Source: a virus. Taken from it: 35,783 bases of DNA. Positions 1,977-23,036 of this stretch are shown one piece after another. The stretch is from UHGV virus genome UHGV-0117379; one strand, 5' to 3'. The notes under the pieces were generated by a model. The model was not told the DNA's origin, searched no databases, and saw nothing but the letters and a program-made list of their open reading frames with translations. Made by a program: the position numbers and the translations under genes. How positions within the stretch are numbered: position 1 is the first letter of the stretch; every line of letters starts with the position of its first letter.

Positions 1977-2168
1977 TTATCGTGAGTTTTTAGTACAGAT
2001 TTTTTTGGATTTACTAATAGTTCCATCATTGCAAACGAATTTGCCATCTGAGGTACAGTGAGAAACACCTCCCTTTTTCCCTGAGCAGGGATAATTTCTA
2101 GCATAGGTAGTTAGTGGGTTTAATAACAAAGAACATGACAAAACCACAAAAAATACCTTACCAAGCAT
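1977..2168 (-). CDS. Small secreted Cys-rich protein (63 aa, signal peptide), cargo between int and cI
   Basis: Hydrophobic N-terminus ([23 protein letters not shown]) then about 40 aa with 5 Cys; strong RBS GGGAGGA 4 nt upstream; starts 15 nt after cI stop so likely co-transcribed with cI. Confidence 0.5.
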
Positions 2169-2183
2169 AGTTTCCTCCCGGTA

Positions 2184-2753
2184 CTATTTAACATACTTGA
2201 CTGTTAAACTTATAATTTTACCAATTATTTCAATGTCTTCTATCTTGCATTCGAAGGCTCTGTTTCCACCCTCGACGAAGATTCTTCCACCGGGTAAACG
2301 AGTAATGTCACGGATCGTTATTTCGCCATCAATACTTATTACCCATTTACCATCACGTATATCATCAAATTCTTTATCACAAATAAATTCAGAATTGTTA
2401 TCTGTGATGACAAAAGGTTTTTTAAACGTAGAGGGTAGAAATCCCTTATCAAAAATATAAAAACCGTCTTTCTGCAATGCTCCATCAGACAATAAATATT
2501 TTTCTACTTCTATAGTATTTGTATTTGCTGATGCTTGCTTTGAACCATGCCCTGTTGTTAGCCAATTAAGCGAGGTGCCCGTTTCAAGGGCGCACTGGAT
2601 TACCCAATCTGCTGGAAAAATATCACGCATATAGCGCGTTGCCATGGTGCTCTTAGAAACACCTAAATGATCACAGAGAGCCTGACGAGTACCGAACCCA
2701 TATGCTTCAACTAAACGTTCTATGGCTTTCTTACCGCCGCTATTGAAATCCAC
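2184..2753 (-). CDS. cI: 186-type CI immunity repressor
   Basis: N-terminal HTH (RLVEAYGFG...CALETGTSLNWLTTGHG) and C-terminus (WVISIDGEITIRDITRLPGGRIFVEGGNRAFECKIEDIEIIGK) align with phage 186 CI as recalled; GTG at 2751..2753 preceded by GGAGGA gives 189 aa, consistent with the about 192 aa 186 CI; alternative GTG at 2840. Confidence 0.75.
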   Translation of the reverse strand: MDFNSGGKKAIERLVEAYGFGTRQALCDHLGVSKSTMATRYMRDIFPADWVIQCALETGTSLNWLTTGHGSKQASANTNTIEVEKYLLSDGALQKDGFYIFDKGFLPSTFKKPFVITDNNSEFICDKEFDDIRDGKWVISIDGEITIRDITRLPGGRIFVEGGNRAFECKIEDIEIIGKIISLTVKYVK

Positions 2754-9403: not shown

Positions 9404-9622
9404 ATGTCAAGTATCGCCGCATTGAAGCTGGGTAATCCAGTTGAACGTTTGGCACGGGTTCTGAAAGAGAACCAGGACAAGCTCAATCTGAGTAAAGATG
9501 GTTTTGTGTCCGTAGATTTGTCCAACGAAGAAGCTATGAAAGCCATCCGAGATCAGATGGATAAGCTTGAAGGCATCAAAACGAGCACTGTTAAAGCAAA
9601 ATATTATTACAGAACCCGATAA
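9404..9622 (+). CDS. Hypothetical 72-aa protein (first gene of accessory module)
   Basis: Strong RBS AAGGAGGGG; stop overlaps next start (TAATG). Confidence 0.55.
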   Translation: MSSIAALKLGNPVERLARVLKENQDKLNLSKDGFVSVDLSNEEAMKAIRDQMDKLEGIKTSTVKAKYYYRTR

Positions 9623-10464
9623 TGGCAACATTACTTTTAGCAGTGATTTTGGTTAGTGGTTTTATATATGTAAACCTATCACTTTCAACACGTTATAGAT
9701 ATAAGCGTTCCAATGGCTGGGACGCTTATTTTTTTGTGGCTGCATGGGGAATTGTCTTTTTCCTCGCTGGCGGCTTCCTTACCTTCGCTCTTAACATCAG
9801 CGGTGGGTTTCGCTGGTTTTCTAATGCGCTGAATCTGACTCCAGACAGCTTTAACGGGATGTTATCCACCACAACCGATAAACCGCAGCGCATCAATGAA
9901 ATTAAGCAAATCGCGTGGGTTGTGATTTCAATAGTTCTCGCGGCGCTGTTCGGTTGGCTAAACAAACGCCGTACTTCAAAAGGGGATCGCCGTTGGGATG
10001 CACTGGCAAAGGCAGTGGGAAACAATGCTTTTGAATCGCTGCTCATGGAAGCATCAGCTCGCCAGTTTCCTATCATTGCTACACTTTCATCACGCAAAAT
10101 CTATGTAGGGCTGGTGACTTGCCCTGCGTTGGAAAATGGATTGTCGGAACACCTTGAAATTCTCCCCTTGCTGAGCGGATATCGTGATAAAGACGACCTA
10201 ACGATAAATATCACGACAAACTATCATCAGCACTATCTTGATAGCGGTGTTATCAATGGGATGTCGCGCCTGAATATCCAGGATTTCCGTGTGCTTCTCC
10301 CTAAAGATGAAGTTGAAACCATCTCGTTTTTTGATACTGAAACGTATAACAAATTTAAAGAAAACGAAGCGCGTGACCGGAAAGACTGCCGCAAGTTGGG
10401 TGGTAAAAAGCCATCCGCACGCAGGAGAAAGACTGCTGGCGACGCAGAGCAGGGTAGTGCATGA
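9622..10464 (+). CDS. Membrane protein, 280 aa (3-4 N-terminal TM helices plus about 160 aa soluble domain)
   Basis: Hydrophobic stretches LLLAVILVSGFIYV, YFFVAAWGIVFFLAGGFLTFAL, IAWVVISIVLAALFGWL; translationally coupled to the 72-aa ORF. Confidence 0.6.
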   Translation: MATLLLAVILVSGFIYVNLSLSTRYRYKRSNGWDAYFFVAAWGIVFFLAGGFLTFALNISGGFRWFSNALNLTPDSFNGMLSTTTDKPQRINEIKQIAWVVISIVLAALFGWLNKRRTSKGDRRWDALAKAVGNNAFESLLMEASARQFPIIATLSSRKIYVGLVTCPALENGLSEHLEILPLLSGYRDKDDLTINITTNYHQHYLDSGVINGMSRLNIQDFRVLLPKDEVETISFFDTETYNKFKENEARDRKDCRKLGGKKPSARRRKTAGDAEQGSA

Positions 10465-10510: not shown

Positions 10511-10538
10511 CGGCCCGCCAGTTCAGGCGGGCTTTTTC
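10511..10538 (+). terminator. Rho-independent terminator after the membrane-protein gene
   Basis: GCCCGCC-AGTTCA-GGCGGGC stem-loop followed by TTTTT. Confidence 0.7.
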
Positions 10539-10584
10539 ATATCTCATGCAGGTGCATGAAAACCACTACACAAAGCGGGCAGGC

Positions 10585-10610
10585 GTGGCGGGGATACGAG
10601 CGCGCGCTCA
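10585..10610. other. Candidate cos site (GGCGTGGCGGGGA...)
   Basis: GGCGTGGCGGGGA at 10591..10603 matches the first 13 nt of the 186/P2 cohesive-end sequence as I recall it; lies between A-side genes and Q as expected. Confidence 0.3.
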
Positions 10611-10665
10611 TTACTTTTATAATTCTAGGGTTATAATACAGGGCTATCTTTCTAGGAGAAAACAC

Positions 10666-12318
10666 ATGTCCTTAGAGTTTATCAAAGAACAGTTGTCAGA
10701 TTTTATCTCATCTACAGAACCAGAAGTAATGGCTATACAGGGTGAATGGGGAATTGGTAAAACCTATACTTGGAATACGTTCCTAAAAGATAATAAAGAT
10801 AAGGTTGCATTTAATAGATATAGTTATGTCTCTCTTTTTGGTATAAATTCACTAGATTCTTTAAAGTATTCTATTTTTGAGAATGCAATTACAAAGGAAT
10901 ATATTGGAAATAAACCTGATTTGGAGACAGCAACAACAAACGCAAGTGGACTTTTTGAATCGTTTTCTCGAAAAGCCGCAGGTTTGTTAAAAGAAGCTCC
11001 TGTTGTAAAAAACTTCTCTACGACACTTGAAGCAATGTCATTTCTGACCGTTTCTAAAATGATTGTAGTAATAGATGACTTAGAAAGGCGTGGCAAAAAC
11101 TTAGATGTTAAAGATGTTTTAGGGCTAGTATCTCTATTAAAGGAGCAGAAGGATTGTAAGGTGGTTCTATTGCTTAACAATGGCACAGCTAGTATGGAGG
11201 ATTATTCTACTTATAAAGAAAAGGTCATTGATAGAGATATCACTTACAATCCAACACCAGAAGAATGCGCAGATATAGCCTATAAAGGTGATTTTCATGT
11301 TTATAACTTGTTAAGTAAATATTCCATTTCTTTAGGTATCAAGAATATTCGAATCTTAAAAAAGATAGAACGTTTTTTCGTGTCCTTAACACCAAATATT
11401 ATAGGTGATGTTGAGACAATTTCAAATGAAGTTGCGCATTCATTAACTCTGTATTGTTGGAGCCATTACGGATTTTCTCCAGAGGGAGATGTGCCATCAC
11501 TAGAATATATTAGGGGAGTGAGGAATATATATACTTATAATGACAAGGAAGAAGGCCATGAGAAAGTCTGGCTTAATACCTTGCTTAAATATGGATATAG
11601 AAAAACGAATGATCTTGATGAGGTTCTTATTGATATGGTTAGATATGGCTATCTTGATAAGAGCAGTTTCCAAAGACAAATAAGCCTAAGGAATGAGGAG
11701 ATTACGCGTGATAATAAACGAGGTTCCTTATCTGAGGCATGGCAGTTCTTTCATAATTCATTTGATGACAATCAAAATCAGGTTGTTGACAAGCTATATC
11801 AAGCGGTGGTTGATGGGATGAAGTATGTGACTCCAAGTGATTTAGATAATGTTGTCGGACTATATAGGGATTTCGGAGAGAATGCTAAGGCGAGTGAATT
11901 GATTGAACAGTTTATTAATTATGGTAACGATGCTCTAAAGGAATATGTTCAATCTATTTATGTGAATGTTCATCCCGTAAGAGATGCTGAGTTGTTGTCA
12001 AAAATTCAAGCCTATTCTAATATTATAAATATTGATGGTTCAATATATGATGTTCTTAAGAAATTATCAGGTCAGAATGGTTGGTCTGATAGACATGAGG
12101 AAATATTGGATGCTGCTTCAGTAGATGACTACTATCAATTATTTAAAAATGTCATTCTTGATGGTGGTGATTCAATAATAGCTACGGCGCTTAAATTCGG
12201 AAATTATAGTAATGGTTCTGATAGAATGAATCGTATAGGGAAAAAGGCAAGGGATGCCTTGATAAGAATTGGAGATGAATCGGCGATTAATAAAATACGT
12301 GTAAGGCGATTTTTGTGA
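10666..12318 (+). CDS. KAP-family P-loop NTPase (550 aa), AT-rich accessory gene
   Basis: Walker A IQGEWGIGKTYTWN (G-x-W-G-x-GKT KAP signature), Walker B MIVVIDDLER; ATG 10666 with AGGAG RBS and TATAAT elements upstream; much lower GC than phage core; flanked by terminators. Confidence 0.8.
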   Translation: MSLEFIKEQLSDFISSTEPEVMAIQGEWGIGKTYTWNTFLKDNKDKVAFNRYSYVSLFGINSLDSLKYSIFENAITKEYIGNKPDLETATTNASGLFESFSRKAAGLLKEAPVVKNFSTTLEAMSFLTVSKMIVVIDDLERRGKNLDVKDVLGLVSLLKEQKDCKVVLLLNNGTASMEDYSTYKEKVIDRDITYNPTPEECADIAYKGDFHVYNLLSKYSISLGIKNIRILKKIERFFVSLTPNIIGDVETISNEVAHSLTLYCWSHYGFSPEGDVPSLEYIRGVRNIYTYNDKEEGHEKVWLNTLLKYGYRKTNDLDEVLIDMVRYGYLDKSSFQRQISLRNEEITRDNKRGSLSEAWQFFHNSFDDNQNQVVDKLYQAVVDGMKYVTPSDLDNVVGLYRDFGENAKASELIEQFINYGNDALKEYVQSIYVNVHPVRDAELLSKIQAYSNIINIDGSIYDVLKKLSGQNGWSDRHEEILDAASVDDYYQLFKNVILDGGDSIIATALKFGNYSNGSDRMNRIGKKARDALIRIGDESAINKIRVRRFL

Positions 12319-12325
12319 TTTTTAT

Positions 12326-12347
12326 AGGGGTGATTAACCCCTTTTTA
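12326..12347. terminator. Bidirectional terminator between the KAP NTPase gene and Q
   Basis: AGGGGT-GATTA-ACCCCT stem-loop followed by TTTTTA. Confidence 0.65.
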
Positions 12348-12348
12348 T

Positions 12349-13380
12349 CTAATTTAATGAGTAATCATTAAATGCTATGATTTTTTCATTTAGCCAAGTA
12401 TTAATTTCTATAAGCCTTTTTTGTAACGGAATTAATTCATTTCGGACAAAGACTTTACTAGCCTTTTCCACATCCCCAAACCCCCCAACATTATTCGGCA
12501 TTATCCCCATCATTTGCGGCGGCACGCGGTGTGCCGCCATCATGTCGTCCCGGCTCACGTTCTTAATATTCAAAAACTCATCCTTCGCTGCGACCTCTGA
12601 CAACGGGATAATCTGAAGCCCGTCCTTTTTGCCGTTAGGCGAGTACATAAACAGGTTGCGGAAGTTGCCCGGACCTTTGGCGCTTTTCATCGCATTGCGG
12701 AGGTTGTTCACATCTTCCTGGTTCTGCGCGGCATCGGTCATGTACATGATGAAGCCTGCATGACTGCCGTTAATGTAATACTTCCGGCGGAACAGCGTGG
12801 CGGACTCGTTGAGCAGGGCTGACGGAATGGCAGAAAGATAACCTGGCAGGCCGTAGATCTCCTGGTTGATGTCCGGTTCCATCAGATGAAAAATGCTGCC
12901 TTTCGTGAACTGATACTGCTGGGTTGTAATACCATATTGCACAAACCAGTAGGTATCCAGGTCTAATCCGCGTCGGGTGTATTTTGCCAGCGCAGGTTCA
13001 AGGGCGATAACTTCACCGAAGCGGTTCGTGCGTTTCTCCAGGTAGGCGTTACCAAATACCAGATAGTCCTGCACAAAACGTGAAAAAGCCTGCTGGCTGA
13101 GCAGCGGGTGAGGGATATAGGTGCTGGTCAGAATATTGCACTTTACTGCAATCGGTGAGCTGTGATGCACGGCGGCGCGGAAGGCTCGCGCCAGTCCGTC
13201 AAAACTCACTGGCGGCTCATACCAGCGATCTGTCTGTACGCATTCCACATAGTCCAGTCGTTCGCGGCGATCCAGTACTGGAATGGGATCGCCGAAGCTG
13301 AATGCTTCGGCTGAAGTCTGGCTTTTATGCTGGGTCTGGTTCTGCGACGCAGCGCGGTTCTTCTTACTCTTTCCCATCAA
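12349..13380 (-). CDS. Q: Portal protein (P2 gpQ)
   Basis: 343 aa; FSFGDPIPV...YVEC...WYEPPVSFD...aligns with the P2 Q N-terminus; adjacent to terminase. Confidence 0.9.
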   Translation of the reverse strand: MMGKSKKNRAASQNQTQHKSQTSAEAFSFGDPIPVLDRRERLDYVECVQTDRWYEPPVSFDGLARAFRAAVHHSSPIAVKCNILTSTYIPHPLLSQQAFSRFVQDYLVFGNAYLEKRTNRFGEVIALEPALAKYTRRGLDLDTYWFVQYGITTQQYQFTKGSIFHLMEPDINQEIYGLPGYLSAIPSALLNESATLFRRKYYINGSHAGFIMYMTDAAQNQEDVNNLRNAMKSAKGPGNFRNLFMYSPNGKKDGLQIIPLSEVAAKDEFLNIKNVSRDDMMAAHRVPPQMMGIMPNNVGGFGDVEKASKVFVRNELIPLQKRLIEINTWLNEKIIAFNDYSLN

Positions 13381-19881: not shown

Positions 19882-20275
19882 AGCAGTGCCTTATGTCCGC
19901 AATAACCCGGACAAACTGCATCTGTTTGTGGATAACGGTTCGCTGGTTGCCACGGGGGCCAGCTCCATGTCATGGGAGTACCGCTATACCCTGAACGTGG
20001 TGATAGAGGATTTCAGCGGCGACCAAAATTTGCTGATGGCCCCGGTTTTACTGTGGCTGCGGGATAACCAGCCCGATGCCATCAATAACCCGGCGTTACG
20101 GGAAAAGCTATTCACCTTTGAGGTGGATATTCTGCGCAACGATGTCTGTGATATCAGCCTTAACCTGCAACTGACGGAACGTGTGCTGGTCAGCACTAAC
20201 GGCAGTGTGTCGAGCGTTGAAGCTATAGCGGAACCTGATGAACCTGAAGAAATGTGGACGGTGAAACGTGGCTGA
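19844..20275 (+). CDS. R: Tail completion protein R (P2 gpR)
   Basis: ..KPQSLRHAINKAV...NPDKLHLFVDNGS...RYTLNVVIEDFSGD..LL.APVL.WLR.NQPD aligns with P2 R; GTG 19844 with AGGAG RBS. Confidence 0.8.
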   Translation: MNKPQSLRHAINKAVPYVRNNPDKLHLFVDNGSLVATGASSMSWEYRYTLNVVIEDFSGDQNLLMAPVLLWLRDNQPDAINNPALREKLFTFEVDILRNDVCDISLNLQLTERVLVSTNGSVSSVEAIAEPDEPEEMWTVKRG

Positions 20276-20732
20276 ATTGCAGAAAGTGGACGACTGGCTG
20301 AGTGCCTTGCTGGCGAATCTGGAACCAGCCGCCAGAAGCCGCATGATGCGCCAGCTGGCGCAGGAACTGCGCCGGACACAGCAGCAGAATATCAGGATGC
20401 AACGCAATCCTGATGGCAGCAGCTATGAACCGAGGCGAGTAACAGCACGCAGTAAAAAAGGCCGCATCAAACGGCAGATGTTTACAAAACTTCGCACCAC
20501 AAAATACCTGAAAACCGCCGCCAGCGCGGATTCTGCCAGCGTACAGTTTGAAGGTAAGGTGCAGCGCATCGCCCGCGTTCACCTTTACGGCCTGCGTGAT
20601 CGCGTCAGTCGAAAAGGACCGGAGGTCCGTTATGCAGAGCGTCGTTTGTTAGGCATTGCTGAAAAAGAACAAAGTTTTATATTTTACACATTAATCAGTT
20701 GGTTACAGGAAAAGGGAGGGTTGCATAAGTGA
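20268..20732 (+). CDS. S: Tail completion protein S (P2 gpS); last about 25 codons AT-rich and divergent
   Basis: MRQLAQELRRTQQQNIRMQRNPDGSSYEPR...KLRTTKYLKT...ARVHLYGLRDRV...EVRY matches P2 S; composition shifts to AT-rich about 20655. Confidence 0.85.
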   Translation: MAELQKVDDWLSALLANLEPAARSRMMRQLAQELRRTQQQNIRMQRNPDGSSYEPRRVTARSKKGRIKRQMFTKLRTTKYLKTAASADSASVQFEGKVQRIARVHLYGLRDRVSRKGPEVRYAERRLLGIAEKEQSFIFYTLISWLQEKGGLHK

Positions 20733-20819: not shown

Positions 20820-22331
20820 ATGCGCCCCAAAATTGGTGATTTTGAATTTGGTGAGGTTTATGGAGAGAATGAGGTATTATTTCTCGATAATTACTCGAAA
20901 TATTTTTATGATATAAATAATTCATTAAGTAAACTTGATAGAAAAAATAAAATGCTCGTAATTGGCAGGAAGGGGACGGGTAAGACATTGCTTGTTAATG
21001 TCTACTGTAACGCCAAGCGAAAAAATAATTATATTGCAGTTGTGGAATCATTAAAAGATTTTGTTTTTCATGAACTTACTCACTTTCAGGGGCAGGATGT
21101 GTCTTCCACAAAATATGTACCAATTTTCAAGTGGATGATATTGGTCAATCTTGCTAAGAATATTGTAAGTAATAAAAAAGGATTTAGTGAGGATAAAATA
21201 GTTCATTTGGAAAGTTTTTTACGTTCTTTTGGCCATGTCGCGGGCGAGTTAAGGCCTGAGCAAACAGTTGAAATAACTAGGGAGTACCAAGCGTCGGGTG
21301 AGGTTGGTATCGGATTTAGATTCCCAGTATTACGTGGTGAAGCCAAAGCAAAAGATGGTGAGGTCGAGAAAACAAAAGAAACAAAAAAGAATTATTTGGA
21401 ATGTATGGAATCTTTGCAGTGTTTTATTGTTGACATGCTAAAAGAGAGTAATAAAAAAATATATGTATTTTATGATGAGTTAGATGATAAGTTTGATGCA
21501 ACAGTTGAATATAAAAATGCAATGATAAGTTTTTTAAATGCTGTTGTGTCAATTAATAAAACTCTAATGCAAAATAAAATAGATGCTAAAATTGGTGCAG
21601 TTATTCGTCATGATATAATAAATACTTTTTCATCGCCGAATATTAATAAAATCATTGAAGATAACTCTGTTACACTTGATTGGTGTTCTGCTGGAGAACG
21701 AGCAAGTGATTCTGAGATTTTTGATATGATTGCTTTTAAGATCAAAAACTCCACTGATTATTATAATGATTTAAATGGTTCTAATTTGTTCGGGAAAATT
21801 TTCACTGAGAGAGTTGCAGGTGAGCATAGCTCTATTTATATTTTACATAGAACTCTAGGTCGCCCAAGAGATGCCGTTAGGATGCTAACTTATATTCAAG
21901 ATGAATATGGAGAAAATACTGAAAGATTTGAAAGTTCCATGTTTACAAAGATTTCTAAAAAATACTCATCTTATCTTTTACGTGAAATTAGATCTGAGCT
22001 TGCGGGACATTTAAGTGATTCAGAAATAGATGACAGTTTTTCTCTTTTACGTTCAGTAAAAAAAAGAGGTTTCACTCCACATTTAATCAAGGAAAAATTT
22101 GAAGAATTGAAGTTAGGAGATGGTACATTAACGCTTAATAAAATACTGAGTTGTTTATTTAAAGTCGGTGCTATCGGGAATGTACTCAGGAGATCTAAAA
22201 CAGATGGCGGAGATGTTTATTTGTGGTCATTTAATGATGAAGATTTAGAAATGGACCCAACGTTGAATTTTGAAATACACTGTGGTTTGTGGGATGCACT
22301 AGGAATTATCAAGCCTAAACTTAGGCAATAA
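20820..22331 (+). CDS. P-loop NTPase, 503 aa, AT-rich accessory gene inserted between S and V (candidate anti-phage/abortive-infection protein)
   Basis: Walker A GRKGTGKT, Walker B IYVFYDELDD, later LGRPRD; about 230 aa C-terminal domain of unknown fold; GC far below neighbours; TATAAT at 20786..20791, AGGA RBS, own terminator. Confidence 0.75.
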   Translation: MRPKIGDFEFGEVYGENEVLFLDNYSKYFYDINNSLSKLDRKNKMLVIGRKGTGKTLLVNVYCNAKRKNNYIAVVESLKDFVFHELTHFQGQDVSSTKYVPIFKWMILVNLAKNIVSNKKGFSEDKIVHLESFLRSFGHVAGELRPEQTVEITREYQASGEVGIGFRFPVLRGEAKAKDGEVEKTKETKKNYLECMESLQCFIVDMLKESNKKIYVFYDELDDKFDATVEYKNAMISFLNAVVSINKTLMQNKIDAKIGAVIRHDIINTFSSPNINKIIEDNSVTLDWCSAGERASDSEIFDMIAFKIKNSTDYYNDLNGSNLFGKIFTERVAGEHSSIYILHRTLGRPRDAVRMLTYIQDEYGENTERFESSMFTKISKKYSSYLLREIRSELAGHLSDSEIDDSFSLLRSVKKRGFTPHLIKEKFEELKLGDGTLTLNKILSCLFKVGAIGNVLRRSKTDGGDVYLWSFNDEDLEMDPTLNFEIHCGLWDALGIIKPKLRQ

Positions 22332-22451: not shown

Positions 22452-23036
22452 TTGGAAATGAATACACAACTGACAGAAATCATGCGCCTTATCACCAACC
22501 TGATCCGCACTGGTGTAGTCACCGAAGTGGACAGGGAAAACTGGCTTTGCCGGGTGAAAACAGGCGACTTAGAAACCAACTGGATCAGCTGGCTGACCCT
22601 GCGTGCCGGGAATGCCCGGACATGGTGGCGACCATCGGAAGGTGAGCAGGTGGTGCTGCTGAGTCTGGGCGGCAATCTGGAGACCGCCTTTGCGCTGCCC
22701 GCTGTCTATTCGAATCAGTTCGCACCACCGTCGACGTCGGCGGACGCCTGCGTGACAGAACATCCTGACGGTGGCTGGTTTGAATACGAACCCGCCACCG
22801 GGCGCTGGTATGTCAGGGGCATCAAATCCATGGTTATTGAGGCTGCCGACAATATCACCCTGAAAACCAGTGAGTTTGTGCTGGAGGCTGACCGCACGCG
22901 TATTAATAGTGAAGTAGTGATCAATGGCGGCGTTACCCAGGGCGGCGGTGCGATGAGTTCTAACGGAATTGTGGTTGATGCACATCAGCATACTGGCGTC
23001 CTGAAAGGCGGCGACACAACCGGAGGCCCGGTATGA
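22452..23036 (+). CDS. V: Baseplate spike/assembly protein V (P2 gpV)
   Basis: MIRTG.V.E.D....CRV.TG...T.W..WLT.RAG..RTWW.PS.GEQV..L..GG.L.TAF.LP..YS...P.PS.SADA colinear with P2 V. Confidence 0.85.
   Translation: MEMNTQLTEIMRLITNLIRTGVVTEVDRENWLCRVKTGDLETNWISWLTLRAGNARTWWRPSEGEQVVLLSLGGNLETAFALPAVYSNQFAPPSTSADACVTEHPDGGWFEYEPATGRWYVRGIKSMVIEAADNITLKTSEFVLEADRTRINSEVVINGGVTQGGGAMSSNGIVVDAHQHTGVLKGGDTTGGPV

What the first reader, a model, noticed from the sequence alone, without database searches (positions are those of the whole stretch)
10540..12348. AT-rich KAP-family P-loop NTPase as a stand-alone cargo gene bracketed by terminators
It carries the KAP Walker A signature GEWGIGKT and a DDLER Walker B, in a 550-aa protein without obvious TM segments. 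The GC content is far below the phage backbone. It has its own sigma70-like promoter and RBS, an upstream terminator (10511..10538) and a bidirectional terminator (12326..12347). KAP NTPases recur in defence islands, but very few are functionally characterised. A single-gene KAP system carried at a P2-family hotspot is a good candidate for an undescribed anti-phage or abortive-infection function.
Basis: partly seen in the sequence, partly recalled or inferred. Interest (0 to 1): 0.7.

Follow-up and report, generated by a model that had tools for sequence, protein, structure and literature searches.

The report
Soluble KAP-type ATPase cargo gene
A P2-like prophage of E. coli carries, between its DNA-packaging (cos) site and its portal gene, a swappable single gene for a soluble KAP-type ATPase that is probably an untested anti-phage defence gene of an already recognised kind.

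Summary
Window 10666..12318 (+) encodes an intact 550-aa protein. It has a KAP-type Walker A (GEWGIGKT) and Walker B (IDDLER), no membrane helices, and 34% GC against 51% for the window. It has its own Shine-Dalgarno sequence, a conserved -10 box and its own terminator.

Two points need correcting. The downstream hairpin is not bidirectional. The phage cos site (10573..10607) lies between the upstream terminator and the gene, so the cassette fills a cos-to-portal slot.

In related prophages that slot holds SieB, an AAA+HNH pair or a 42%-identical homologue, or it is empty. The upstream 72-aa and 280-aa membrane-protein genes are a separate module.

The protein belongs to a large fixed-architecture family (1267 hits to 50%-identity cluster representatives) found here only on mobile elements. 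The family is under purifying selection (dN/dS 0.13). Its C-terminal 300 aa is an alpha-solenoid with no enzyme-like fold.

It is not PifA or QatA, hit no Tmn model, and only weakly matches the PADLOC candidate PDC-S49. Rousset et al. 2022 already listed this exact protein in P2 hotspots but did not test it. Single-gene KAP defences were validated elsewhere in 2026. Verdict: a likely defence gene, a new member of a known kind, with no phenotype yet.

The parts
10512..10541 (+). Intrinsic terminator that ends the upstream 72-aa/280-aa operon. It lies outside the cassette and belongs to the conserved backbone.
   Evidence: 8-bp stem with 7 GC pairs, followed by TTTTTCA. It is also present upstream of cos in loci that carry other cargo.
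10573..10607 (.). Phage cos region. The 19-nt cohesive-end homologue is 10582-10600 (GGCGTGGCGGGGATACGAG). This is the left boundary of the variable slot.
   Evidence: 20/22 identity to the P2 cosR/cosL junction, plus collinear flanking matches. The same 22-mer followed by TACGAGCGCGCGC occurs in L001, L002, L003, L004, L011, L012 and L013, and the sequences diverge right after it. P2 cos annotation.
10632..10637 (+). Candidate -10 box (TATAAT) of the cassette's own promoter. A second TATAAT lies at 10618-10623. The -35 is weak.
   Evidence: Read from the sequence. GGGTTATAAT is conserved in the 78%-identical variants L022 and L023. The consensus scan did not call it, for lack of a -35.
10654..10659 (+). 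Shine-Dalgarno sequence AGGAGA, six bases before the ATG.
   Evidence: GGAGA/GGAG is conserved in the variants.
10666..12318 (+). CDS of the 550-aa soluble KAP-type P-loop NTPase (stop codon included).
10666..11400 (+). N-terminal NTPase domain with helical lid (residues 1-245). Includes Walker A (10741-10764), Walker B (11071-11088), invariant N171 (sensor-1 position) and the invariant NIR motif (227-229). A poorly ordered helical insert (about residues 60-130) sits where other KAP proteins carry TM helices.
11401..12315 (+). C-terminal all-alpha domain (residues 246-550, about 16 helices). Solenoid-like, with no enzyme-like fold. Carries an invariant ES..N..R motif at 538-545.
12326..12347 (+). 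Intrinsic terminator of the cassette, on the + strand only. Right boundary of the slot, abutting the stop codon of portal gene Q (12349..13380, - strand).
   Evidence: The - strand tail is A-rich. Each variant cassette brings its own different hairpin.

Best explanation
This is a one-gene accessory cassette (promoter, SD, CDS, terminator; about 10608-12348) in the variable slot between cos and portal gene Q of a 186/P2-like prophage. It encodes a soluble member of the KAP superfamily of P-loop NTPases.

Most likely it is an anti-phage or inter-element defence protein that works as a nucleotide-dependent sensor-switch.

Inferred steps:
1. The faster-evolving C-terminal alpha-solenoid binds a protein of an incoming phage.
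2. Binding changes the nucleotide state or oligomeric state of the AAA+/STAND-like NTPase domain.
3. No nuclease, TIR, SIR2, protease or membrane domain is present. The output is therefore either NTP-driven sequestration or remodelling of the bound phage (or host) complex, or runaway NTP hydrolysis.

Shown here: gene integrity, motifs, lack of TM helices, domain architecture, cassette autonomy, slot sharing with known exclusion genes, restriction to mobile elements, and purifying selection.

Inferred only: the defence function, the trigger, and the output.
For: Cassette autonomy. The same gene (>=99% identity) follows DinI directly (L002), an HsdR_N-domain gene (L001), or the 72+280-aa pair (window). 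A 78%-identical variant follows yet another gene (L022). Each variant has its own SD, -10 box and terminator.

Slot. In sister prophages the sequence diverges exactly after cos. There the cos-Q interval holds SieB (L013), AAA ATPase + HNH (L012) or a 42%-identical KAP homologue (L003), or it is empty (L011). Rousset et al. 2022 showed the A-to-Q region of P2-like phages is a defence hotspot and listed this protein there.

Prevalence. 123 of 5426 complete E. coli genomes carry it, and every copy inspected lies next to the portal gene.

Mobile contexts of homologues:
- lambdoid prophage moron region beside an AbiJ-like gene (L015-L017);
- integrase-bearing islands, some with an AlpA/HTH_17 gene (L008, L018, L019);
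- about 110-kb phage-plasmids (L025);
- a Burkholderia phage genome end beside RelE and HNH genes (L026).
PHROG 4740 gives a full-length match.

Selection. dN/dS is 0.13 at 78% aa identity. All six ORFs examined are intact. One of the 124 E. coli records has the gene next to an IS2 and truncated at its 5' end.

Active-site residues are invariant.

Relation to defence candidates. PADLOC PDC-S49 matches at E = 4.5e-28.

Precedent. KAP NTPase plus an uncharacterised C-terminal region gave phage resistance that needed both Walker B and the C-terminal region (PMC13552941). Reve is a single-gene KAP system in P4 hotspots (PMC13586616). Tmn raises ATP turnover on sensing T2 RIIB (10.64898/2026.03.01.708804).

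The C domain diverges faster than the N domain and has a repeat/solenoid fold typical of binding modules.
Against: There is no phenotype. Rousset et al. catalogued the gene but did not test it.

Only 3 of the 8 additional P2-hotspot systems they cloned showed activity on their panel, so hotspot location alone is not proof.

No effector domain is detectable, so the output step is a guess.

The match to PDC-S49 is weak and partial, at 70-100 bits for all family members tested, and PDC-S49 is itself only a candidate.

The Pfam KAP score is modest (29.6 bits) and covers only part of the model.

Some distant homologues sit in contexts that are not clearly defence islands, for example L014.
Confidence: 0.55

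Rival explanations
1. The KAP protein is the cytoplasmic component of a three-gene system together with the upstream 72-aa protein and the 280-aa three-TM protein (9404..10464). The membrane protein would be the effector, as in the TIR + TM system of phage AC1.
For: The pair precedes KAP genes in the window, in E. coli L023 and in Salmonella L003, although the Salmonella KAP protein is only 42% identical. TIR + TM systems exist at this hotspot. The protein lacks an effector of its own.
Against: The pair is 94% identical between the window and Salmonella while KAP is 42% identical, so the two did not co-diverge. The pair occurs with SieB, with AAA+HNH, or with nothing downstream, and with a SEFIR/TIR gene in a Klebsiella phage. 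KAP occurs without the pair in L001, L002 and L022. A strong terminator and the cos site separate them. Homologues in other elements have no such neighbours.
Confidence: 0.06
2. It is an accessory gene that benefits the phage or host in some way other than blocking other phages. Possibilities are a counter-defence factor, a modulator of prophage induction, replication or packaging (given its position next to cos and the portal/terminase genes and its ORC/Cdc6-, TnsC- and MuB-like fold), or a lysogenic-conversion function.
For: Not all hotspot cargo is defensive; plasmid-partition genes and cytolethal distending toxin also occur there. The closest folds are DNA-associated initiator-clade AAA+ proteins. 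No effector domain is present. No phenotype is known.
Against: Presence or absence varies among near-identical prophages, and the slot can be empty (L011), so it is not needed for the phage life cycle. The same family occurs in unrelated element types with different replication and packaging systems. The fold matches are generic (12-14% identity). The family is related to a PADLOC defence-island candidate.
Confidence: 0.25
3. It is a member of an already characterised KAP defence family (Tmn, PifA or QatA) and works the same way: membrane-linked ATP or Mg2+ loss, T7 exclusion, or the Qat pathway.
For: It shares the KAP Walker A/B signatures and the Y..K.I motif with PifA. Like PifA it is a single gene on a mobile element.
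Against: PADLOC holds PifA and QatA models that score PifA at 963 bits, but they do not hit this protein at E <= 0.1. The profile comparison with PifA aligns only the NTPase core, at probability 21.8%. tblastn against plasmids matched only 21 Escherichia records, and those inspected are about 110-kb phage-plasmids, not F-type pifA plasmids. There are no TM helices, unlike Tmn. There are no qatBCD neighbours.
Confidence: 0.03
4. It is a decaying or selfish remnant with no function for phage or host.
For: One E. coli copy lies next to an IS2 and is truncated at its 5' end (H22/H82).
Against: dN/dS is 0.13-0.28, the ORFs are intact across 42-99% identity, and the catalytic residues are invariant. 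At least 817 clusters keep the architecture.
Confidence: 0.02

Closest known systems
[quoted passage not shown]
   Same: A single gene on a mobile element. A KAP NTPase domain is followed by about 300 aa with no known domain. In EF_KAP both the Walker B motif and the C-terminal region are required for defence. tblastn shows N-domain-only similarity to Enterococcus plasmid proteins.
   Different: [quoted passage not shown] The hosts are Firmicutes. The C-terminal regions are unrelated as far as can be told. This family has not been tested.
[quoted passage not shown]
   Same: A single-gene KAP-type system in a cos-adjacent hotspot of the P2/P4 phage-satellite pair in enterobacteria. Validated against several phage families.
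   Different: It is carried by P4-like satellites, and that paper reports P4 and P2 almost never exchange defence genes. The sequence is not held in the library, so homology could not be tested.
PifA of the F plasmid (T7 exclusion)
   Same: A KAP-superfamily NTPase without predicted TM helices in the NTPase domain, on a mobile element, acting as a single protein. It shares GxWGxGKT, DDLxR and a Y..K.I motif.
   Different: 741 aa. Only the NTPase core aligns (hhalign probability 21.8%, E = 1e-3). The PADLOC PifA model does not hit this protein. The C-terminal parts are unrelated.
Tmn (Gao et al. 2020; YobI/KAP-type transmembrane NTPase)
   Same: A single-gene P-loop NTPase defence of the KAP/YobI kind. 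The NTPase is activated by a phage protein (T2 RIIB), and ATP turnover is part of the output.
   Different: Tmn has two TM helices inserted in the NTPase domain and acts at the membrane through Mg2+ export and plasmolysis. This protein is soluble and hit no PADLOC model other than PDC-S49 and PDC-S20.
PADLOC candidate PDC-S49
   Same: Best defence-database match: E = 4.5e-28, residues 6-429 aligned to positions 9-441 of a 624-position model. It is a single-gene candidate.
   Different: Only 70-100 bits for every family member tested, and never across the last about 120 residues. It is a sister family rather than the same one. No paper in the library mentions PDC-S49.
STAND NTPase defences (Avs, bacterial NLR-like proteins)
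   Different: There is no N-terminal effector domain. NB-ARC scores 14.5 against a cut-off of 23.5. No Avs model in PADLOC is hit.
P2 old and tin; SieB (exclusion genes of the same prophage region)
   Same: AT-rich, non-essential, independently expressed cargo in the A-to-Q region of P2-like phages.
   Different: The proteins are unrelated. In P2, old and tin lie on the A side of cos. This cassette, like SieB in L013, lies on the Q side of cos.

Membership tests
KAP family P-loop NTPase (Pfam PF07693; Aravind et al. 2004, from my own knowledge) | Pfam KAP_NTPase model scored above its gathering threshold | tested here: met
   29.6 bits against a cut-off of 20, residues 8-193 on profile positions 6-224 of 293. 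The precomputed PF07693 tag is present on the close homologues but absent from most distant ones.
KAP family P-loop NTPase | Walker A of the form GxWGxGK[ST], and Walker B of the form hhhhDDL[DE]R | tested here: met
   GEWGIGKT (26-33) and VVIDDLER (134-141). The key residues are invariant in 40 sequences. They align to PifA GAWGSGKT and MDDLDR.
KAP family P-loop NTPase | Two or four TM helices inserted in the NTPase domain between Walker A and Walker B (typical of many members, not all) | tested here: not met
   The highest 19-residue hydropathy mean is 1.35. The insert at about residues 60-130 is helical, partly disordered and polar.
KAP family P-loop NTPase | An alpha-helical (superhelical) region C-terminal to the NTPase | tested here: met
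PifA | Match to the PifA family model, or full-length similarity to F-plasmid PifA | tested here: not met
   PADLOC PifA model PDLC02361 scores PifA at 963 bits but does not appear for this protein at E <= 0.1. hhalign aligns only 178 columns of the NTPase core, at probability 21.8%.
Tmn | TM hairpin within the NTPase domain, and a match to a Tmn model | tested here: not met
   No TM helices. No PADLOC hit other than PDC-S49 and PDC-S20. That PADLOC-DB holds a Tmn model is my own knowledge and was not checked here.
QatABCD | A QatA-like NTPase encoded next to qatB, qatC and qatD | tested here: not met
   QatA models exist in PADLOC and do not hit this protein. The neighbours are cos and the portal gene.
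PADLOC candidate PDC-S49 | Full-length, high-scoring match to a PDC-S49 model | tested here: inconclusive
   E = 4.5e-28 but 96.5 bits, covering residues 6-429 only. Five other family members score 70-100 bits with partial coverage.
STAND / Avs-type defence NTPases | Tripartite architecture: effector domain, STAND NTPase, repeat sensor | tested here: not met
   No effector domain. NB-ARC is below its cut-off. No Avs hit.
P2-like prophage hotspot cargo (Rousset et al. 2022) | Variable gene between replication gene A and portal gene Q, next to cos | tested here: met
   Layout. The same protein accessions are listed in their Table S5A.
Reve (P4 hotspot KAP system) | Sequence similarity to the Reve protein | not testable with these tools
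   No supplementary file with the sequence is held.
Anti-phage defence system (any) | Reduces phage infection when expressed | not testable with these tools
   It is not among the systems cloned by Rousset et al.. No paper was found under its accessions.

The most novel reading that the evidence does not exclude
This fixed-architecture family of soluble, effector-less KAP NTPases (1267 hits to 50%-identity cluster representatives, on P2-like and lambdoid prophages, phage-plasmids and small integrative islands) is a widespread defence that needs no killing domain. It would block infection purely by NTP-driven capture or remodelling of a phage protein.

In P2-like phages its placement between cos and the end of the late P-Q operon has a further consequence. 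That operon has lost its own U-tract terminator here. Late antisense read-through could therefore switch the gene off during the carrier phage's own lytic growth.
Probability: 0.12. Interest if true: 0.6.

Novelty: new member of a known kind. Interest (0 to 1): 0.35.

Why it matters
If it is active, this would add a very common soluble KAP family to the validated defence repertoire. The family is present in about 2% of complete E. coli genomes and reaches Vibrio, Shewanella, Pseudomonas, Salmonella, Klebsiella phage-plasmids and Burkholderia phages. It would also give a tractable E. coli model for a basic question: how does a KAP NTPase with no recognisable effector stop a phage?

The finding also sharpens the map of the P2 hotspot. 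In this 186-like lineage the swapping slot begins exactly at the right edge of cos. This matters for how cassettes are exchanged and for which end of the packaged genome they occupy.

It is not a surprise to specialists. The gene is already catalogued and the class was validated in 2026.

Tried and rejected
- Sequence search of the PDB: nothing significant.
- NCBIfam: nothing.
- BFVD Foldseek: generic AAA+ ATPases with TM-scores of 0.31 or less.
- The afdb50 library was not available.
- Literature searches for PDC-S49, the protein accessions and phrog_4740 found nothing.
- The 2004 KAP paper is not in the library.
- The Reve sequence could not be obtained.
- A three-gene system with the upstream membrane proteins was considered and rejected on distribution and divergence.
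- The 614-aa reading frame was rejected as an annotation artefact that runs through the terminator and cos.
- A 'bidirectional terminator' was rejected.
- I suspected that a Bacillus SPbeta-like phage hit might be YobI. It is a 565-aa hypothetical protein, not YobI.
- No consistent partner gene was seen across distant contexts.
Full report
**What is there**

The window is a 186/P2-like prophage of E. coli, 99.9% identical over the region to strain MB06173. It carries an integrase, a CI-type repressor, a Dam methylase, replication gene A, DinI, then the region of interest, then portal Q and terminase P on the opposite strand.

The finding's ORF is real. Frame +0 of 10666..12318 is open for 550 codons in DNA of 34% GC. 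The chance of that is about 2e-21, and the other five frames hold 26-81 stops.

The true start is the ATG at 10666, six bases after AGGAGA. All 39 aligned homologues begin at the MS(L/V/I) of the 550-aa form. The 614-aa version annotated in some RefSeq records reads through a terminator and the cos site.

Their key residues are invariant across the family. Pfam KAP_NTPase passes its threshold, at 29.6 against 20 bits. There is no membrane segment.

Both terminators exist. Three things need correcting:
- The downstream hairpin works only on the + strand. Its complement has an A-rich tail.
- The promoter is a conserved perfect -10 box with a weak -35, and the consensus scan did not call it.
- The P2-type cos site lies at 10573-10607, between the upstream terminator and the gene.

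**The slot**

The cos 22-mer followed by TACGAGCGCGCGC is identical in seven related prophage loci, and the sequences diverge immediately after it. In this lineage the interval from cos to the stop codon of Q takes several states:
- empty (L011, about 170 bp as in P2);
- SieB (L013);
- an AAA ATPase plus an HNH endonuclease (L012);
- a 42%-identical homologue of this protein in Salmonella (L003);
- this gene.

The cassette therefore sits at the extreme left end of the packaged chromosome. That is the Q side of cos, whereas P2 old and tin sit on the A side. Each KAP variant brings its own SD, -10 box and a different terminator hairpin.

**Stand-alone or not**

The 72-aa and 280-aa (three-TM) genes at 9404..10464 look at first like partners, because they also precede the Salmonella homologue. 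They are 94% identical between the two loci, however, while the KAP proteins are 42% identical. They also occur with SieB, with AAA+HNH, or with nothing downstream. A Klebsiella phage that matches this region at 97.7% carries a SEFIR/TIR gene there.

Conversely, the KAP gene occurs directly after DinI (L002), after an HsdR_N-domain gene (L001), and after an unrelated gene (L022). A strong terminator and cos separate the pair from the KAP gene.

**The family**

A word-indexed search gave more than 1000 hits. The best 120 were all about 550-630 aa at 95-100% coverage, from Enterobacteriaceae, Vibrio, Shewanella, Pseudoalteromonas, Pseudomonas, Aeromonas and marine metagenomes.

An exhaustive phmmer search used only the C-terminal 301 residues against 1.84 billion cluster representatives. 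It found 1267 hits (817 at E <= 1e-10). Among the best 150, essentially all full-length proteins carry the domain at the same position, about 250-550 of 540-600 aa. The architecture is fixed, and the C domain was not seen in any other domain combination among those hits.

Where context could be read, the gene is on mobile elements:
- the P2-like cos-Q slot (E. coli, Salmonella);
- a lambdoid prophage moron region beside an AbiJ-like gene (Cronobacter);
- small integrase-bearing islands, some with an AlpA/HTH_17 gene (Pseudomonas, Cycloclasticus);
- about 110-kb phage-plasmids of E. coli and Klebsiella;
- the genome end of Burkholderia phages beside RelE and HNH genes;
- rhizobial and Legionella plasmids.

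One locus (L014) is not obviously mobile. PHROG 4740 ('unknown function') matches full length.

In complete E. coli genomes, 123 of 5426 carry the gene. One copy lies next to an IS2 and is truncated at its 5' end.

dN/dS is 0.13 between the two E. coli variants at 78% aa identity, and 0.28 against the Salmonella homologue. All ORFs are intact, and all are 32-34% GC.

**Structure**

AlphaFold2 with the family alignment gives pLDDT 83. Residues 1-245 form a P-loop alpha/beta core plus a helical lid. A poorly ordered helical insert (about 60-130) lies between the second strand and Walker B. That is the position where Tmn carries its TM hairpin and EF_KAP one of its two TM helices.

Several residues are invariant and sit where AAA+ sensor-1 and lid arginine residues usually lie: N171, R141, R102 and an NIR motif at 227-229. 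That placement is my inference.

Among distant members the N domain keeps 55% identity and the C domain 35.5%. That pattern is expected if the C domain is the specificity module.

**Comparison with known systems**

The PADLOC database holds PifA and QatA models. Neither hits this protein. The only hits are the single-gene candidate PDC-S49 (E = 4.5e-28, residues 6-429) and a marginal PDC-S20.

Every family member I tested scores only 70-100 bits on PDC-S49 with partial coverage. This is therefore a sister family not covered by a dedicated model. No paper in the library mentions PDC-S49.

A profile comparison with F-plasmid PifA aligns only the NTPase core (probability 21.8%) but shows the shared KAP motifs. 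The protein is a divergent, soluble member of the KAP superfamily. It is not a member of the PifA, Tmn or QatA families.

**Literature**

Rousset et al. 2022 defined the A-to-Q region of P2-like phages as a defence hotspot. Their Table S5A lists these very accessions (WP_023147874, WP_053891075) as 'KAP_NTPase', in arrangements identical to L001 and L002. The protein is absent from the tables of cloned systems.

In 2026 two papers made the class concrete:
[quoted passage not shown] For EF_KAP both Walker B and the C region are required, and the effect is not abortive (PMC13552941).
- 'Reve', a single-gene ATPase/KAP system from P4-satellite hotspots, protects E. coli (PMC13586616).

Tmn senses T2 RIIB, raises ATP turnover and exports Mg2+.

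**Mechanism**

Shown: an autonomous, expressed-looking, selected single gene for a soluble KAP NTPase with an alpha-solenoid tail, in a slot that otherwise holds exclusion genes.

Inferred:
1. It defends against other phages or satellites.
2. The tail recognises a phage protein.
3. Recognition switches the NTPase.
4. With no effector domain, the output is NTP-powered sequestration or remodelling, or NTP drain.

I put 0.55 on the overall defence-switch reading, and much less on any particular output.

A speculative extra: the P-Q late operon has lost the U-tract terminator that P2 has at this position. Late transcription may therefore run antisense through the gene.

**Verdict**

It is a good, cheap experimental candidate rather than a surprise.

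Noticed in passing
window 10573-10607: The phage cos site (cohesive-end homologue GGCGTGGCGGGGATACGAG, 10582-10600) lies upstream of the KAP gene. In this 186-like lineage the variable cargo slot is the cos-to-Q interval, and sequences diverge exactly after ...TACGAGCGCGCGC. P2 old and tin lie on the other side of cos.
   Followed up: yes
window 9404-9622 and 9622-10464: A 72-aa protein (phrog_9843) and a 280-aa three-TM protein (phrog_3630, weak DUF2207_C match) form a conserved pair between DinI and cos. The pair is 94% identical between E. coli and Salmonella prophages and is present in 52 complete E. coli genomes. Its function is unknown. It precedes many different cargo genes.
   Followed up: partly
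window 20820-22331: A second AT-rich island (GC 0.30-0.38) between the tail-completion gene (20268-20732) and the baseplate gene (22452-23036). It encodes a 503-aa P-loop ATPase (GRKGTGKT; YDELDD) that matches phrog_13260 (unknown function). It has only sub-threshold ORC-CDC6-like and AAA_7 hits and no PADLOC family. From my own knowledge this is the position of P2 orf30. It is a second candidate cargo NTPase in the same prophage.
   Followed up: partly
window 12319-12348, - strand: The late P-Q operon has no U-tract terminator after Q here, whereas P2 has tQ at this place. Late transcripts may therefore read antisense into the KAP gene.
   Followed up: no
L012 4771-6670 and L013 4784-5329: Sister prophages carry an AAA ATPase + HNH endonuclease pair, or SieB, in the same cos-Q slot.
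   Followed up: partly
L001 3267-5918: In the most common E. coli arrangement seen, the KAP gene is preceded on the A side of cos by an 883-aa 'HsdR N-terminal domain' protein (S1/HSDR_N in Rousset Table S5A). This is another uncharacterised hotspot gene.
   Followed up: no
window 2001-2500: A further low-GC patch (0.35) around the repressor gene region (ORF 2184-2840, - strand). Not examined.
   Followed up: no
L025 (NC_018651 91460-93154) and L026 (PV072766 50061-51794): Full-length homologues at about 26-27% identity on about 110-kb E. coli and Klebsiella phage-plasmids, and at the genome end of Burkholderia phages next to RelE-like and HNH genes.
   Followed up: partly
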